From Eledone cirrhosa (lineage: Eukaryota): DNA of 64,000 nucleotides. The notes beneath the pieces are model-generated. The model was not told the origin of the DNA. It worked only from the letters and a program-made list of their open reading frames with translations, and did not search any database. The translations under genes and the position numbers were made by a program. Shown here in pieces: positions 4,905 to 33,667 of this stretch (the stretch's first letter is position 1; the number at the start of each line of letters is the position of its first letter). Location: positions 244,032,001-244,096,000 of the forward strand of contig OZ024743.1 in the NCBI GenBank assembly GCA_964016885.1. The letters are read 5' to 3'.

Positions 4905-5310
4905 ATTTAGGGTGGGTAAAATTCCCGAGATCCATGTACGAGCTCTCTCCAGCGGTCTCTGTCATTCATCATCGCCGCCATGTCCTGCGTCTCCAAGAGA
5001 CCTCTGTCTGTCCTTAGGGCATCAACATATGTCAACCTCGGTCTCCCTCTTCTAGTGTGTCCGTGTAGGGGCTCCCACAGGAGCACTGAGTGCAGTGTCA
5101 ACTCTGAATGTCGGTGAGCATGTCCAGCTAACCCCAGTCTCCTCTGTGTCACTTTTGAGCTGACATTTGGGAGGCTCCCGTACAGCTCTGAGTTCTTCAT
5201 CCTAAGTGTATACTGGTTAATGTTCAGAACCATCCTCAGCATTCTCGTGTAGCACCCATCCACCATCTGAGTGAGATTCTTGGTCAGTTTCCAAGTCTCA
5301 GACAGTGTGT
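4905..5310 (-). mobile_element. 5'-truncated RTE-clade LINE, 3' end
   Basis: SETWKLTKNLTQMVDGCYTRMLRMVLNI...RRLGLAGHAHRH...VLLWEP.HG..RRGRPRLTYVDAL...MNDRDRWR is a typical RTE C-terminus. Same family as 22780-23045. Confidence 0.9.
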
Positions 5311-5311
5311 T

Positions 5312-5362
<51 letters not shown>

Positions 5363-5426
5363 CCGTCGAAACGGGTTGAGTTCTGCCATCGGGGTCATAC
5401 TTTTTCCTATATATATATATATATAT

Positions 5427-5831
5427 GAATATATGTATAGTATATTTGGCAATATATCGTATATTTAATTTAAAACATTTAGAAGAACATACGCTATCAG
5501 TTTTAAAGTAGTGACTATGTCACTCCTTTTCGGCGAAAGAAGGGAGAGAAGCTGACAGTCTATTTCACGCTGGTTGGCGTTCATCAGAGCCACGTACGCC
5601 CTTGCTTTCGCCGAAAATTATAGAAGCTGGATTCTTATAGAATTCCACTAATAATCAGCAGCTGATTATACAGAGCGATTGCCGGTCCAGCAAAAATTAG
5701 ATATTAGGATTGGTGCTATGAAATAGCGATGTATACATGAATGTATGTATAGTATATTTGGGAATATACCGTCTTCTAAATGTTTTTAATTAAACATACG
5801 GTATATTGCCAAATATATTATACATACATTC
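5427..5831 (-). mobile_element. Non-coding hammerhead cassette (~312-bp monomer with terminal redundancy plus inverted arm)
   Basis: Direct repeat 5427-5460 / 5739-5772. Inverted arm 5772-5831 pairs with 5427-5487. Hammerhead at 5551-5590. Flanked by (TA)n. Confidence 0.7.
5551..5590 (-). ncRNA. Type I minimal hammerhead ribozyme
   Basis: Minus strand gcu-CUGAUGA-acgc caacca gcgu-GAAA-uagacug-UC-agc. Stem I gcu/agc, 4-bp stem II, near-palindromic stem III, GUC triplet. Confidence 0.8.
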
Positions 5832-6010
5832 AAATATATATAAATATATAAGTAGTAACACAACAGTTAGTTCACCATGTTCACCATATATATATATATA
5901 TATATGGTGAACTAACTGTTGTGTTACTACTTATATATTTATATATATTTTAGGATTGGTGCTGCTCTGAAATAGCGATGTATACATGAATGTATGTATA
6001 GTATATTTGG

Positions 6011-6052
<42 letters not shown>

Positions 6053-6055
<3 letters not shown>

Positions 6056-6661
6056 TGGCTGCCAACTCGTTTTCGAGTACGGCCATTACTTTATATCCAT
6101 GTAGGAGAACCCCTACCGATGCGCTGAACAAGTGTGACTTTTTAGTCCAGCCAGCGACTTGAACACTCTGGTACAAACACTACACTTGTGACAATTACTG
6201 AGACATAGTGCTGGGCTCATGGTACCATGTGACGACAAGTGCAGAGAGATCTCCAGATATAAAGCAATGCCTGTGCCGTGAAGCTTTTATAGTGAGCAAA
6301 GGCACTGCACAAAGCCAGTGTCCACTCTCTTAACCAAGATGATATTTACCAAAAAGAAGAACAAGTTAACATCATTGGATACCATCAAGGTTGCAGGTGT
6401 TATATCAGAGTTTTCCTTCTCCTAGAATTCTGTCTTGACAAAGGCTAAGGGGTCATCTCTCAGATGATTTTGGATGGCCATTTACTCTTAAGAGCTCCTT
6501 TGCTCTTTGACAGGTTTTGTTTTTAGTCCTGCAGGATGTCCAAAGTCACCCTCCTCACCAAAAAACCTTGGTGGCGTTGCCAGTTTAGTCGCCAACGACC
6601 CGACCATGAAACAGGTTGTACTGGGATACATGTTACCAGTAGCACCAACTGGTGACCTGAC
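6053..6661 (-). mobile_element. Non-autonomous RTE-derived retroelement, copy 1
   Basis: Highly similar to 40851-41383. The 3' part encodes a C2H2-like CSVCTRVFKSLAGLKSH resembling the RTE C-terminus at 38099-38400. The 5' part resembles 37690-37867. Confidence 0.75.
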
Positions 6662-21519: not shown

Positions 21520-22760
21520 AGTATTTAAATGTTTTTCGTATACGGTGATTACAAACTATAATCAGTTCCTGTCTTTTATTCAATAAATCGTCCTTGGATT
21601 TAGTAATTTCCAAGATCTCCCCTGAACATAACCGGCATTCTCTCCTGTTCCCAAGATATGGAGTTCTTTGTAGAATGGTGTTCCACGATAGCTTGAAATG
21701 TATTTTTTTCTTTTTATAGTTATTTACTGCTTCAGCTAAAGATGTGGTGTTAGCTAGTTTAGTATTGTTAAAACTACTAGAGTGTGCGTAAAATCTTTTC
21801 TTAAATGTGTTTGATGTAGATCTTTTTTATGTTTTGTTGGAGTCAGTAGTAGACACAGTGCATTTATATATTACATTATTAATCAAACAGTTGCCATTTA
21901 AGGGGCAAATGCTTCTATTTCTGCAATTACAACCATACGTAAGATGGTTGTTGGGGGTACCTATACCATTCTCATTAATCCTTGAGCTATTCCTATTGTA
22001 ATTAATGTTAGCGGGAGAATGCAGGTTGCTTTGTGGGTGGTTTAGTGCTAGGGTTGTATTGTGACTTTGTGTTCTGTTGTTTTTGTGTTGGTGATTTGGG
22101 TGGTTGTGTTTTCCGGGTTGACTGATTGTATTATTTGTCCTTTTAAAAGGTGCAGTCCTATTTAAATTATGTTGTGGTGGTGTGGTCATATTATTTTTAA
22201 ATTTATAAATGTTGTAGTTGCTTATTTTTTGCTGGAGATTGTTTGATGTAGAGTATGAGAATTTAACAGTATATCTGTTAAATATTTGGTGGTATCTGTG
22301 GTTTGGTGGAAAATGTTTATGTAGAATTTCGAAGAATTTTTTGGGGATTTGTCCAATAGTTTGCAGGTTGAAGGGTGCGTTGTACCATGTTATGTTTCTT
22401 TTGCGGTGTTTAGTTAAGTTCTTATTACCACTTATATTAATGTGCTGTGTTCTAGAAGAATTCATATGGTTAGTATCTGTATTTGTGGAATTTGGTAAAC
22501 TACCGTGGTTGTATTTGGTGTTATTATTGGGTAGATTATGAGATTTTGAATGCTTGGTATTCATATGTGAGTTGATTACATTGGTCATAGATCGTGTAGT
22601 AATAGTTGTTGTGGTTTTTCGGTTGTTTGGTGTAATAGGAATAACTCCATTAGGTATTTGTTTCAATGGTATTTTTTGGTGTTTGTAGTTTTTGCTAGGT
22701 CTTATATTTTGGTCCATAGTAGTGTTGGGGATATATGAAATTTTTTCTTTATATCCACTT
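21520..22760 (-). pseudogene. Penelope-like element, 3' coding part (linker, Zn knuckle, GIY-YIG endonuclease), frameshifted
   Basis: KRNITWYNAPF...HFPPNHRYHQIFNRYTVKFSYS and CNCRNRSICPLNGNCLINNVIYKC. Continues out of frame as STSNTFKKRFYAH and CRLC..E. Homologous to ORF 31837..32505. Confidence 0.9.
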
Positions 22761-22779
22761 CTAGTTAAGGCCTCGTTGT

Positions 22780-23909
22780 AGTGTATACTGATTAATGTTC
22801 AGAGCCATCCTCAGCATTCTCGTGTAGCACCCATCCACCATCTGAGTGAGTTTCTTGGTCAGTGTCCAAGTCTCAGACCCGTACAGCAGCACAGACTCCA
22901 CTACAGCAATGAAGAGCCGGATCTTCAGGTCTTTACGAAGGTCCGACTTCCACACCGATCTCAAGCTGTGGCACGCCGCCCAGGCTTTGCTCTTCCTCTC
23001 AACCACATCATCTTCCGTATTCCCAATCTTTGCTCCCAAATACAGAGGTGATGAAGAGATGTGATTTTGATGATATCATCCTGGGGTTCTGTAACCAGGC
23101 ACTGGAGAAAGGAGTTGCCCCAAATCAGTGGAGGATCAGTAACATCGTCCCAGTGCCAAAGAAAGGAGGTCTCTTTAACACCAACAACTACAGGGGATCT
23201 CACTGACGTCACTTGTGGCAAAGACCCTCAACAGGATGATTCTTAACAGGATCCAGCCTGAGATGGAGAAGAAGCTCAGGGACAACCAGAACGGCTTCAG
23301 AGAGGGAAGATCAATCACCAGTCACATCCTGATGCTGAGGAGGATATTAGAGGGAGCTAGAGCAAAGTGCTTTCCTGTGGTCATGGTTTTCATTTACTTT
23401 AGGAAGGCCTTTGATTCTGTGGACCATCACTGCCTGATGAAGATCTTACAGGCTTATGGAATCCCCAAGAAGATAGTGGACCTGATATCACTGCTCTACA
23501 CCAACACCAAAGCCCAAGTCATTACACCTGATGGGATGACAGAGTTCTTTGAGATACTGGCTGGAGTGCTCCAGGGAGATACATTGGCTCCCTACCTTTT
23601 TATCATCGTAGTGGACTATTGTATGCGCCTTGCACTGGAGAAACACCAGGACTCTGGCTTTACTGTAGCACCGGCTCAGAGCAGGAGAGTTAAGGCTAAA
23701 AAGATATCAGATGTTGAATTTGCCGACGACATAGTTTTGGTGACAAATACAGTGAAGGAGGCAGAGGATTTGATGCAGGAGGTTGAGACTGTGTCGATGA
23801 GTGTGGGGCTGAGAATGAATGAGACTAAAACAAAATATCTGGTAGAGAATGTTGAGAAGCCAGAGGGGATCACTAATGTAGGCGGGAAGCCGCTATGGTT
23901 GAGGACTTC

Positions 23910-28937: not shown

Positions 28938-29406
28938 GTATATGTATACATGAATGTATGTAATATATATATATATATATATTTATTTATTTATTAAAGT
29001 TTAAGCAAAGAATCGCTGCTTTCACCCTTAACAGGATCTTTAGAAACTAAAAAAATCAATCTGTGAACGCAGAAGTAAATATTTCGAAAAACGTTGCAAC
29101 CGAAGGAAGACAGGAAGACGAGACTTTGGTTCGTAGAAACGTTCCCTGGCAAAGAACGAAAAATAAACGAAGATAATACGTCATTATTTGGAGCGGTGAA
29201 AACAATTACACGCAAAGACAAAACTACGTTTATGGTATAACTGTAGTCGTAGATTAATATTCTATTAGGTGGTTCGTGGAATGAACGGAAAAAACGAAGA
29301 TAATACGTCATTATATATAATATTGAGATGAGCGGAACAAGTAAAATTCAAACAATCTTTCAAAATAAATTCAAAAAATATAATTTAAATATTTACCTAT
29401 CCATAT

Positions 29407-29487
29407 TGCTTTTACCGCCGGTTTCGCCTCACAAAAGATTGGAAATCCGAGGGACTTCCAATGGAAAGTTCGGCTCTTCAGAAAGCA
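29407..29487 (-). ncRNA. Type I hammerhead ribozyme (inverted-arm copy)
   Basis: ugcuuu-CUGAAGA-gcc...ggc-GAAA-ccggcgg-UA-aaagca on the minus strand. Confidence 0.85.
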
Positions 29488-30049
29488 TTTTCCCTTACAT
29501 AGGACTTAAAGTCCCACAGCCGGCAAATATATTGCCTTCAGCCAGCTAGTGCAGGATCGAATGGGGCCTTAAACGTGACCTACACGTGAACTGGTCGTTA
29601 GTAGAAGCGGTAATAGCATTGACGTGTTGTTTGCCACACCAATAAAAATAGCAGCTAGGTAAACAACGGATTTTTTCTCTACTCATGGGAGAATTTATAT
29701 AAAATCAGATTAATATCCCTACAGGCATTAAGTACCCTGGTATGTCAAATTAATACCATTGAACAACAACTGTATCATAGACACCCTATATATTTCCGAG
29801 GGTACTTAGTCCCTGTGGGGATATTAATTTGATTTTATATAAATTCTCCCATGTGTAGAGAAAAAATCCGTTGTTTATCTAGCTGCTATTTTTAGTGGTG
29901 TGGCAGACAACACGTCTATGCTATTACCGCTTCTACTAACGACCAGTTCACGTGTAGGTCACGTTTACGGCCCCATTCGATCCTGCACTAGCTGGCTGAA
30001 AGCAATATATTTGCCGGCTGTGGGACTTTAAGTCTTATGTAAGGGAAAA

Positions 30050-30130
30050 TGCTTTCTGAAGAGCCGAACTTTCCATTGGAAGTCCCTCGGATTTCCAATT
30101 TTTTGTGAGGCGAAACCGTCGGTAAAAGCA
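30050..30130 (+). ncRNA. Type I hammerhead ribozyme with 49-nt stem II domain
   Basis: ugcuuu-CUGAAGA-gcc...ggc-GAAA-ccgucgg-UA-aaagca. 6-bp stem I, stem III ACCG/CGGU, GUA triplet. Confidence 0.88.
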
Positions 30131-30348
30131 ATATGGATAGGTAAATATTTAAATTATATTTTTTGAATTTATTTTGAAAGATTGTTTGAATTTTACTTGT
30201 TCCGCTCATCTCAATTTTATAGTTCTGGTATTCAAATTAATACCATTGAACAACGACTGTATCATAGACACCCTATATATTTCCGAGGGTACTTAGTCCC
30301 TGTGGGGATATTAATCTCATTTTATATATATATAATATATATATATGC

Positions 30349-30395
<47 letters not shown>

Positions 30396-30435
30396 GATAT
30401 TAAACAAATGGAAACTATATTTATAAAACCATATT

Positions 30436-30501
30436 TATTTCATTATACATATTTCAGGGATACCATATTAAAAATATGGCATGCCTTCTTCAGATAAAAT
30501 A
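30436..30501 (-). ncRNA. Type I hammerhead ribozyme in the PLE 3' region
   Basis: uauuuuau-CUGAAGA-aggcaugccauauu uuu aauaugguaucccu-GAAA-uaugua-UA-augaaaua. About 1.3 kb 3' of the PLE ORF on the same strand. Confidence 0.88.
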
Positions 30502-31836
30502 CAATATATAAGCAGTTTTATAAATAAATTTGACGTACCATAAAATATTGATCAACTTCCATTTAAAAAAGTTGGTTTGGTAGTGAAATGTTTGTAAATA
30601 TTTAGTGTTAAGTACAGTTAGAAAGAAAGACGGAGAGAAGGAATAAATGTATGTAAAGAAAAATAGAGAGAGATAGAGAGAAATATGGGAGAGAGAAATA
30701 GTGAGGAGGTGAACAATGAGAGGCAGCTGAGGTAACAGATGAATAATAATAATTCAACATGCAAAATGAGAGATTTAGGGGGGGAGGGAGTACTGTAATT
30801 ATTTATTTATTTATTTATTTAGTTATAGTGTTAAGGAGACGGAGAAAAATAAAAAATAACAGCGATACATAGATTACATCATGTATAGAGGGAGGAGAAG
30901 AAAGCTATATCTAGAGAGAAGGATGACAGATTTACAACTTTACGTTATGTTCTATCAATTTGAATTATCAATTTATATGAATTGGGTATTATACTGTAAA
31001 TATCAATATTCATGAATGAGACATAGATATATAATGTTTGAAAAATAATGACCATATGTTTAGTTTAAAAATTCTTAGGTCGATATATCAAAAACCTGAG
31101 ATAAAACTTCAAAATACATAAGTATATATGTACTTTTCGGAAAAAGAAAGAAAGAGAAAAAGAGAAGGTCATCTCAAGTTCTAGTTGACACTATAGATAT
31201 ACACGTGAGCATACGTGATCAGCTCTGTAATTTCTCATTTCACATGAAAAAATGTTCCTTTGCGTTATAAAAGATTTTACTATATATATATATATATACA
31301 TACATACACGTACATAAAAATATAAAATATATATTAATATTAATATTCCTGCCCTCACATACATGATTATCGTTCATGTATAGAATAGACAACAGATATC
31401 AATATATCAAAACGCTAAGAATACTTTCATCACTCCCTAGAGTGTCTAGGGCCTTAAAAAACACAGTATGCACCCCATATCAACCACAGAAATCAACCCT
31501 TCCAATTTATCTGACAATATATTGCCAAGTTCATTAGAAGCAATCAGAATCAAAAGCAAACAAAAAACCAAAATTATTCAACAAGACTTATTTAGCAGAA
31601 ATCATTTAAAAGATTTAGGAGACCCTGTTGTTCTACAGATGCTCTTATATTTAGTATAGAAGTTTATCTAGCGTAAAATTTATTCAATAGATTGGGAGCA
31701 TCAACATTTAAGGGTAGTTTAATTACATCATTAGTATATATTTATGAAGAAGGTTTAAAAAAGAAAAAGTTGAAGGAATCGAAAGATTTATCGTCATGTT
31801 TCATAATTAATTAAATAAATATCTTAACTAAATATA

Positions 31837-33568
31837 CTACATTTTAAATTTATATTTATATTTAAACGTTGAGTTCAATCTATGTCTGCAGCAACTGAAT
31901 AGATTGCTCCTTAGATTAAGGGAATTTTTAGATTTTAATATAAAGAATATCTCCTCCACGCAGAGGTCACATGTCTCAGATGAGGAATTAAAAGGAATCC
32001 CTCTTGAGACTATATTCCAAAACAACAAATATCCACCTTTATCATGTTTAAGTTGCCAGAGTAAGCCTGATAGTGAAGTTGAAGATTTTTTGCCTGGATC
32101 TGTGAAAGAATTCTTATGATTATTATAGCGAAGTTTAAATTCTGTCGAGGTGGAACCAACATAGTTAAAAGAATTTAAGTCAGTTTTAACATTACAATTG
32201 TATATTATATTTTTAACTAAGCAATTGTTATTTAACGGACATTTAGATTTATTTCTACAGTTACAGTTGTTTAATTGAATATTGTTTAGGCTATTATCTG
32301 TATTTTGGCTAGGTTTTAGATTCCTATTATTTATTCTGTTAATATTTTGTGCTAAGTTTTTGGTGGACGAGTAAGTTAATTTTATAGTATGTCTATTAAA
32401 AATTGAGTGATATTTATGTGTTCTAGGGAAGCGTTTGTCAAGAGCATTAAAAAATAGTTTAGCAATGTGGGTTTTAATATTTAGTGAGAGGGGGGGGGGG
32501 GGCAAACCATATTATATTTCTAGTTCTATTTCTTTTCTGGCTTTTGGAATTATTGTAATGTTTTCTATTATAGTTGTTAAAGTTGTTACCGTAATTAAAA
32601 TTGTTGTTATATTGGTTAGTTTGCCTATTATTATCGATGTACATAATTTTATCACTATATCCTGCTCTAGCTAACGCTTCATTGTAATACTGCGCTTTTT
32701 CGTCGAAAATATTTTTATTAGATGAAATTCTTGAGATACGTTCTTGAACAGAGTTCACTATAGTATTTTTAACAGATCTGGGGTGATTAGAGTTAAAACT
32801 GACATAATTCAAGTTTTCATTTAGTTTGTGAAAAGGATAGTGAAGACATGTGTTGAGATTTAGTGTTACATCTAGGAAATTGACTATTCTATGGTTATTC
32901 TCTATTTCTATTTTTAGATTAAGGTAATTAAAAAATTGTATAATTTGTTTTCTTTTCCTATTTAGTTCAGAGTTATTATTTTCAATAAGTAAAAGCGTGT
33001 CATCACGATATAATCCTCCGGTTACACCAGGTATTTTTCTATGTAGCGAATTAATTATAAATAGGCCCACAAGGTCCGTTACCTGAGCTGAGTCAGATGA
33101 TCCCATAGTAATGTCGAAATTATTATCTCTATCTGCCCTAGTCCATAGTTGGTTATTAAATTCTATCAATGTTTTCCTTGCCGATAATATAATGTGCATT
33201 TCATTGCTAGTTAGGTCTGTATGTTTGAATGCGTAATTTAGTGCCTTATTTAGTAGATTAGGGGTAATAGATGAATAGTAGTTAGCAATATCTAGTTGAA
33301 TAAATTTATTATTATTGTTATATTTAATTTCTTTAAACCACTCAATAACCTCACCAGTTCCCTTCCACAAGTTTAAGTTAGGTAAACCATGTAAGTTTTT
33401 AACCTGCTGTATCACCCTGTCTAGAATGTTTTTGCTAAGTTTACCCAGGTCAGATTTTGATGGTGCAATCAATCTGACTGGCAAATCATTTTCAAAATTT
33501 CTTTTGTGATCTTTCATACTGAAATATGTATGATGAAATAAATATGGTTTTATAAATATAGTTTCCAT
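31837..33568 (-). CDS. Penelope-like retroelement polyprotein (RT + Zn knuckle + GIY-YIG), 5'-truncated, one frameshift at a G-run near 32490-32502
   Basis: RT motifs QLDIANYYSSI, ITMGSSDSAQVTDLVG, LYRDD, VNFLDVTL, SNHPRS. Then CNCRNKSKCPLNNNCL, NIIY...YVGSTSTEFKLRYNNH and CDLCVEE. Confidence 0.93.
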
Positions 33569-33667
33569 TTGTTTAATATCGTATATCTACTCCAAAACTT
33601 GTTGAGTGCTTTATATCAGTTATAAAATATTTACTCGTTGTAACCCAACAATTTTAAATAAAACTTT

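What the first reader, a model, noticed from the sequence alone, without database searches (positions are those of the whole stretch)
5427..5831. Second, unrelated cassette with the same architecture (312-nt monomer)
Seen: a 34-bp direct repeat at 5427 and 5739 brackets one minus-strand hammerhead (5551-5590). It is followed by an inverted arm (5772-5831), a hairpin (5836-5946) and another partial copy (about 5950-6012). The sequence is unrelated to the 29.3-30.3 kb cassette but the layout matches, which points to a shared integration mechanism. 312 nt is in the size range known for metazoan non-LTR retrozymes.
Basis: partly seen in the sequence, partly recalled or inferred. Interest (0 to 1): 0.78.

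Follow-up and report, generated by a model that had tools for sequence, protein, structure and literature searches.

The report
Hammerhead retrozyme with Penelope insertion scar
This is one copy of a short protein-free repeat, present thousands of times in this animal genome, that carries a predicted self-cutting RNA fold and the insertion scars of Penelope-type jumping genes; it is a known kind of element (retrozyme), but its back-to-back copies indicate that one RNA, likely circular, is copied from two start points in a single insertion.

Summary
The 312-nt unit belongs to a dispersed family with no reading frame (4,040 matches to its 3'-end motif), carrying a type I hammerhead whose stems and core C3-G8 pair covary across three sister families. 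Copies are 5'-truncated partial tandems in (TA)n with two fixed 3' ends about 34 nt apart, often as head-to-head pairs: the Penelope-like-element (PLE) signature. Of 38 classifiable pairs, 29 have one long and one short end and none has two long ends. Paired arms share variants far above chance (101 against 21). A young 310-nt sister family forms head-to-head arrays of near-identical units, long plus short in 16 of 16. Best reading: a non-LTR retrozyme mobilised in trans by a PLE enzyme. Two corrections: the 34-bp repeat is a chance truncation overlap, and the hairpin is the 3' end of a different, protein-coding PLE. Cleavage, RNA circles and the partner enzyme are not shown. The kind is known, and this scan noted like structures on other DNA of this genome.

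The parts
5408..5426 (.). (TA)n target tract at the 3' end of the main arm
   Evidence: sequence; most 3' ends in the family run into (TA)n or (CA)n
5427..5772 (-). Main arm: one full 312-nt unit plus 34 nt of the next, ending at the family's short 3' end (5427)
   Evidence: 13 differences of 312 from the family majority base
5461..5772 (-). 312-nt monomer without ORF (family units 310-316 nt, 38% GC)
5528..5616 (-). Type I hammerhead: long bulged stem I, 4-bp stem II, palindromic stem III; C3 at 5587, predicted cut after 5554
   Evidence: fold predicted and covarying, cleavage untested
5679..5770 (-). Conserved structured region around the two 3'-end sites (hairpins, AC-rich loop with the short site near 5739, long site near 5703, GAC-loop hairpin); likely the enzyme-binding and start region
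   Evidence: role inferred from PMC11167929
5772..5831 (+). Inverted 5'-truncated arm of the same family, also ending at the short 3' end
5832..5949 (.). Not this element: inverted duplication of the short 3' end of a different, GIY-YIG-encoding PLE family plus its interrupted TA flank
   Evidence: 2,805 motif matches; motif lies 225-270 nt after the endonuclease match in 16 of 20 loci
5950..6013 (-). Short piece of the 312-nt family ending at the long 3' end, facing the inverted arm across the hairpin
6014..6054 (.). (TA)n tract at the 5' side of the third piece
   Evidence: sequence

Best explanation
An aged insertion of a protein-free 312-nt hammerhead repeat (non-LTR retrozyme) that was most likely pasted into a (TA)n tract by the reverse transcriptase-endonuclease of a Penelope-like element acting in trans. 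Shown: dispersed family, no ORF, fixed 3' ends at two sites about 34 nt apart, 5' truncation anywhere around the unit, head-to-head pairs with one long and one short end, variants shared by both arms. Inferred: tandem transcripts are cut by the hammerhead (as a dimer, through the palindromic stem III) and ligated to circles; the PLE protein binds the structured region near the ends, cuts both strands of (TA)n, and each 3'-OH primes cDNA on the same RNA, one at each start site; copying runs round the unit until it stops, and the two cDNAs are joined at their 5' ends. I put trans-mobilisation by a PLE at about 0.85, one RNA molecule for both arms at about 0.7, a circular template at about 0.6.
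For: Family: 39 other full-length places at 92-94% among the 40 scored; 4,040 end-motif and 636 hammerhead-core matches, controls 0. Ends cluster at two sites, 5' ends scatter, units run head to tail up to 606 nt. End rule: 29 of 38 classifiable pairs long+short, 9 short+short, 0 long+long, p 2.4e-4; 9 of 9 and 7 of 7 in the young 310-nt sister family, at homologous sites. Shared variants in paired arms: 101 against 21.1 +- 4.8, 0 of 1,000 draws. A rare variant (47 matches, against 15,626 hammerhead units) fills every unit of both arms in 4 arrays and of one single arm. Covariation: 11 of 25 hammerhead pairs, including C3-G8 to U3-A8, and 4 of 32 end-region pairs change on both sides. Tail, inverted copy, (TA)n target and two adjacent start sites are described for PLEs in PMC8557442 and PMC11167929.
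Against: No partner was found: a profile of the three sister families matched no terminal repeat of the two ORF-bearing PLE families tested (62 loci), out of many PLE families present. The window's own pair is short+short, against the common rule. The window's family forms no long arrays in 102 loci, and no copy with two intact hammerheads in tandem was verified, so it may fail the 'active retrozyme' criterion of the 2026 preprint. This copy has a C-to-U change in stem III that weakens the predicted dimer helix from -6.9 to -3.1 kcal/mol. Rfam match is below threshold. Covariation rests on three or four related lineages. Gene conversion between arms could explain part of the shared variants in the old family.
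Confidence: 0.82

Rival explanations
1. The unit is the pseudo-LTR of an autonomous PLE, and these copies are its 5'-truncated ends, with no independent life.
For: Same scars as PLE ends; the neighbouring hairpin is exactly such a remnant; most copies lack the hammerhead (636 against 4,040).
Against: Upstream of a unit there is always more unit, a TA tract or unrelated flank; no shared ORF-bearing flank in 90 fetched loci or 30 loci of the U3-A8 search; sister families form arrays of 10 or more units with no ORF between.
Confidence: 0.08
2. Non-autonomous and PLE-mobilised, but the template is a linear multimeric transcript of a source array, not a circle, and the hammerhead is a passenger.
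For: In PMC11167929 hammerhead mutants did not affect insertion in vitro and unprocessed RNA was the main substrate. A uniform source array would also give uniform units.
Against: Rare variants fill whole arrays or single units, with no ordered pattern shared between arrays in the 13 variant-bearing loci read; hammerhead structure is kept by compensatory change across 62-74% identical families.
Confidence: 0.3
3. Tandem units and inverted arms arose after insertion at the DNA level (unequal crossover, fold-back at (TA)n, gene conversion).
For: The 2026 preprint proposes local amplification by unequal crossover. The window's hairpin and L133 show real fold-back duplications. Old 321-nt arrays have diverged units.
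Against: A fold-back copy would give two like ends, whereas long+short dominates; central junctions fall anywhere, with 1-4 nt overlaps in 5 of 9 arrays; single-unit variants persist unconverted in 8 arrays.
Confidence: 0.07

Closest known systems
Metazoan non-LTR retrozymes (Cervera and de la Pena 2020, PMC7229834; Li, Clavereau and Pollet 2026, 10.64898/2026.07.22.740005)
   Same: Unit of 150-450 bp, low GC, type I hammerhead with short palindromic helix III, no LTR or ORF, many monomer copies, co-occurring PLEs proposed as mobilisers.
   Different: New sequence family. Here the insertion anatomy is mapped: two fixed 3' ends, head-to-head arms, long+short rule, one template variant for both arms. 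The parts of those papers that I read do not describe this, and the preprint leans on unequal crossover for arrays. No homologous autonomous pLTR found here; expression and circles untested.
Endonuclease-positive PLE insertion units (Craig et al. 2021, PMC8557442; Frangieh et al. 2024, PMC11167929; Cervera and de la Pena 2014, PMC4209133)
   Same: Partial tandems, inverted 5'-truncated copy, 30-40 bp tail often at one end only, (TA)n targets, two adjacent internal start sites in an AC-rich stem-loop, hammerhead in the repeat, U3-A8 core variant.
   Different: No RT or GIY-YIG frame; the repeat unit is the whole element.

Membership tests
non-LTR retrozyme | Type I hammerhead in the unit | tested here: met
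   Core intact, stems I-III, covariation; Rfam HH9 only below threshold
non-LTR retrozyme | Unit 150-450 bp, GC under 50%, no LTR and no ORF | tested here: met
   312 nt, 38% GC; no ORF link
non-LTR retrozyme | Head-to-tail tandem copies | tested here: met
   Up to about 1.9 units in the window's family; up to 14 hammerhead units per arm in the 310-nt sister; long arrays in the 321-nt sister
non-LTR retrozyme | [quoted passage not shown] | tested here: inconclusive
   Not met by this copy (one hammerhead); not verified in the window's family; met by the sister family
non-LTR retrozyme | Self-cleavage | not testable with these tools
   Needs in vitro transcription
non-LTR retrozyme | Expressed as linear and circular monomer RNA | not testable with these tools
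   No RNA run was offered
autonomous EN+ Penelope-like element | RT plus GIY-YIG ORF between pseudo-LTRs | tested here: not met
   No ORF continuous with any arm in the loci examined
autonomous EN+ Penelope-like element | 5' truncation, partial tandems, inverted copy, 30-40 bp tail at one end, (TA)n target | tested here: met
plant-type LTR retrozyme | Type III hammerheads in LTRs, with PBS, PPT and 4-bp target duplication | tested here: not met
   Type I fold; the direct repeat varies in length between copies

The most novel reading that the evidence does not exclude
The lineage records the retrozyme transposition step directly: a PLE enzyme dimer primes one circular RNA at two sites 34 nt apart, one from each strand of a cut (TA)n, and rolls round the circle, so that a whole head-to-head array with one long and one short end is written in one event, not grown later by unequal crossover. 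The young 310-nt sister family (15,626 units) would then be a live substrate with a structurally conserved enzyme-binding element.
Probability: 0.5. Interest if true: 0.62.

Novelty: new member of a known kind. Interest (0 to 1): 0.4.

Why it matters
How animal retrozymes move is proposed but not shown. This lineage ties them to PLE enzymology through insertion scars rather than co-occurrence, gives a marker-based argument that both arms of an insertion come from one RNA, and names a short conserved structure and a young sister family with which the question can be tested in vitro. The window's copy itself is an aged, ordinary member.

Tried and rejected
Rfam scan of the whole window: the 150 rows shown of 241 were microsatellite-driven miRNA and similar matches, none a hammerhead. 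The abundant PLE family of the window (31.8-33.6 kb) as partner by sequence: it has its own hammerhead repeat and shares nothing with the unit in 30 loci. The hairpin's PLE family as partner: no sequence match; it lies near 5 of 83 loci, but another PLE end was found near 5 of the first 30 loci, so shared TA targeting suffices. The hairpin as unique target DNA: rejected, 2,805 matches. DNA search with the 310-nt unit returned nothing although the unit is in the genome; a pattern search found it. A genome-wide survey of all PLE families for a partner was not achieved. Expression: no RNA holder listed; three contig runs of one sample laid on the locus say nothing on RNA. Pfam gave no family for the PLE frames. 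Look-ups of earlier findings by sequence were empty.

Full report
Observation. The minus strand holds a type I hammerhead with intact core (C3 at 5587, predicted cut after 5554), a 4-bp stem II, a long bulged stem I and a palindromic stem III. The region folds better than all 200 shuffles (z -3.78). Rfam sees it only below threshold (HH9, 19.3 of 52 bits).

A family. The window lies in a 3.0-Gb genome (G000). The unit has 3,109 first-look candidates; the 40 scored places were the window and 39 others at 92-94%. A 27-nt motif at the 3' end has 4,040 matches with up to one mismatch, the hammerhead core 636, controls 0. I number the unit 1-312 from window 5772 downwards.

Anatomy of copies. In 90 fetched loci (7 of them repeats of another) 5' ends scatter around the unit and copies run head to tail past the unit boundary, while 3' ends cluster at two places, about position 35 and about 69 (BLAST reports 44 and 75 because it extends into the TA tract), mostly into (TA)n. 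The longest continuous piece is 606 nt. Head-to-head pairs with 3' ends outwards occur in 46 of 102 distinct loci; this is inflated, because I picked many of the 20 regions for having opposite-strand neighbours; among the 27 distinct loci taken in genome order it is 11. Of 47 pairs, 9 had an end outside both classes and were dropped; of the other 38, 29 are long+short, 9 short+short, none long+long (expected share of unlike pairs 0.47, p 2.4e-4). The window's pair is one of the short+short cases.

No reading frame. PLE protein fragments lie in some loci, but downstream of a 3' end, on the other strand or beyond other repeats; upstream flanks are not shared apart from repeated fetches, one 41-nt repeat and the pair L075/L086. 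The same holds for 30 loci of a sister search. A profile of the unit families did not match the terminal repeats of the two ORF-bearing PLE families tested (62 loci). Many other PLE families exist and were not tested, so the partner is unknown.

The hairpin is foreign. Its motif has 2,805 matches and lies 225-270 nt after a GIY-YIG-type endonuclease match in 16 of 20 loci: it is the short 3' end of another PLE. In the window it is an inverted duplication that includes the interrupted TA flank and stops at the two inward-facing ends of the 312-nt family, one short (5831) and one long (5950). L133 has a similar fold-back. I cannot order these events.

Sister families. A 310-nt family (64% identical) has 15,626 hammerhead units, and a 321-nt family (74%) has a U3-A8 core. 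On 16 sequences, 11 of 25 hammerhead pairs change on both sides, including the core pair 3-8 and three pairs of stem II (0 of 500 shuffles); on 15 sequences, 4 of 32 pairs around the 3' ends do. These counts rest on few related lineages. Stem III differs in each family but stays palindromic; self-pairing is predicted at -6.9, -7.5 and -20.1 kcal/mol, and at -3.1 for the window's copy, which has a C-to-U change. The young family forms head-to-head arrays of 1-14 near-identical units per arm; ends are long+short at the homologous sites in 9 of 9 arrays and in 7 of 7 more with both ends in view. A rare variant (47 matches) fills every unit of both arms in 4 arrays and of one single arm, and occurs as a lone unit in 8 others; no array has one arm fixed for it and the other not. 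In the window's family, opposite arms in 37 loci share 101 variant sites against 21.1 +- 4.8 for arms drawn from other loci (0 of 1,000; 88 without the fold-back L133); gene conversion could add to this.

Mechanism. Shown: the anatomy above. From the literature: PLE insertions are 5'-truncated partial tandems with an inverted copy, a 30-40 bp tail often at one end only, and (TA)n targets (PMC8557442, passages); a purified PLE protein cuts and extends both strands of AT-rich DNA, is predicted to be a dimer and starts at two adjacent internal sites in an AC-rich stem-loop that define the tail (PMC11167929, parts 1-2 of 4); short palindromic helix III points to dimeric hammerheads, and U3-A8 is a known core variant (PMC4209133, part 1 of 4). 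Inferred: the unit RNA is bound in trans by a PLE protein, both cut strands prime on the same RNA, one per start site, and copying runs round the unit. A circle explains this most simply, but a linear transcript of a uniform source array is not excluded, and in PMC11167929 hammerhead cleavage was not needed for insertion.

Comparison and novelty. Non-LTR retrozymes, their circles and PLEs as likely mobilisers are in print (PMC7229834, passages; bioRxiv 10.64898/2026.07.22.740005, parts 1-3 of 5; its supplements were not seen and may hold related families). The element meets the sequence-level features of that kind and fails the ORF test for an autonomous PLE. Four paper searches (listings and abstract starts) showed no report of head-to-head retrozyme arrays with a long+short rule or of both arms sharing one template; subscription journals are not covered. 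Notes of this scan describe like structures for other families in this genome, which is not independent support.

Verdict. Real; a new member of a known kind; this copy is aged and ordinary. The added value is the mechanism evidence from its lineage. Interest 0.40.

Noticed in passing
L104:1-889, L135, L163-L171 (G000:C1): Young 310-nt sister family, 64% identical to the window's unit, 15,626 hammerhead units, head-to-head arrays of near-identical units; looks recently active.
   Followed up: yes
L084, L174-L201: Third sister family (about 321 nt, 74% identical) with a U3-A8 hammerhead core and a 12-nt palindromic stem III; some long, diverged arrays (L191, L197-L199).
   Followed up: partly
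window 5832-5949 and L133:720-850: Inverted duplication of target flank between two inward-facing 3' ends; in the window one end is short and one long. Origin unexplained.
   Followed up: partly
window 29316-30331: The other cassette: 92% inverted arms, direct repeat at 488-nt spacing, one arm ending about 115 nt further than the other; same layout, unrelated sequence. Its family was not searched.
   Followed up: partly
window 31837-33586 (-) and 21827-22798 (-): Broken PLE frames (RT followed by a cysteine-rich linker and GIY-YIG-type endonuclease); the first belongs to an abundant family whose hammerhead end lies at 30391-30560. Clade not tested.
   Followed up: partly
window 19691/19815, 48240, 55724: Further hammerhead-like cores of unrelated repeats in TA tracts.
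   Followed up: no
L075 and L086: Two copies share 195 nt of foreign sequence fused to the same 5' truncation point, with different outer flanks: possibly a chimeric unit that moved again.
   Followed up: no
L163-L165: In young arrays the TA tracts on both sides share the same interruptions in direct orientation, like a target duplication inside the microsatellite.
   Followed up: no
window 4907-5303 (-), 5360-5407, 6055-6200: A frame that looks like the 3' end of an RTE-type LINE (label recalled, no Pfam hit) and two more repeats flank the locus; 6075-6198 is very deeply covered.
   Followed up: no
family units, position about 245-252: A GTAAGT splice-donor-like motif is present in 316-nt units and shortened in 312-nt units such as the window's.
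   Followed up: no
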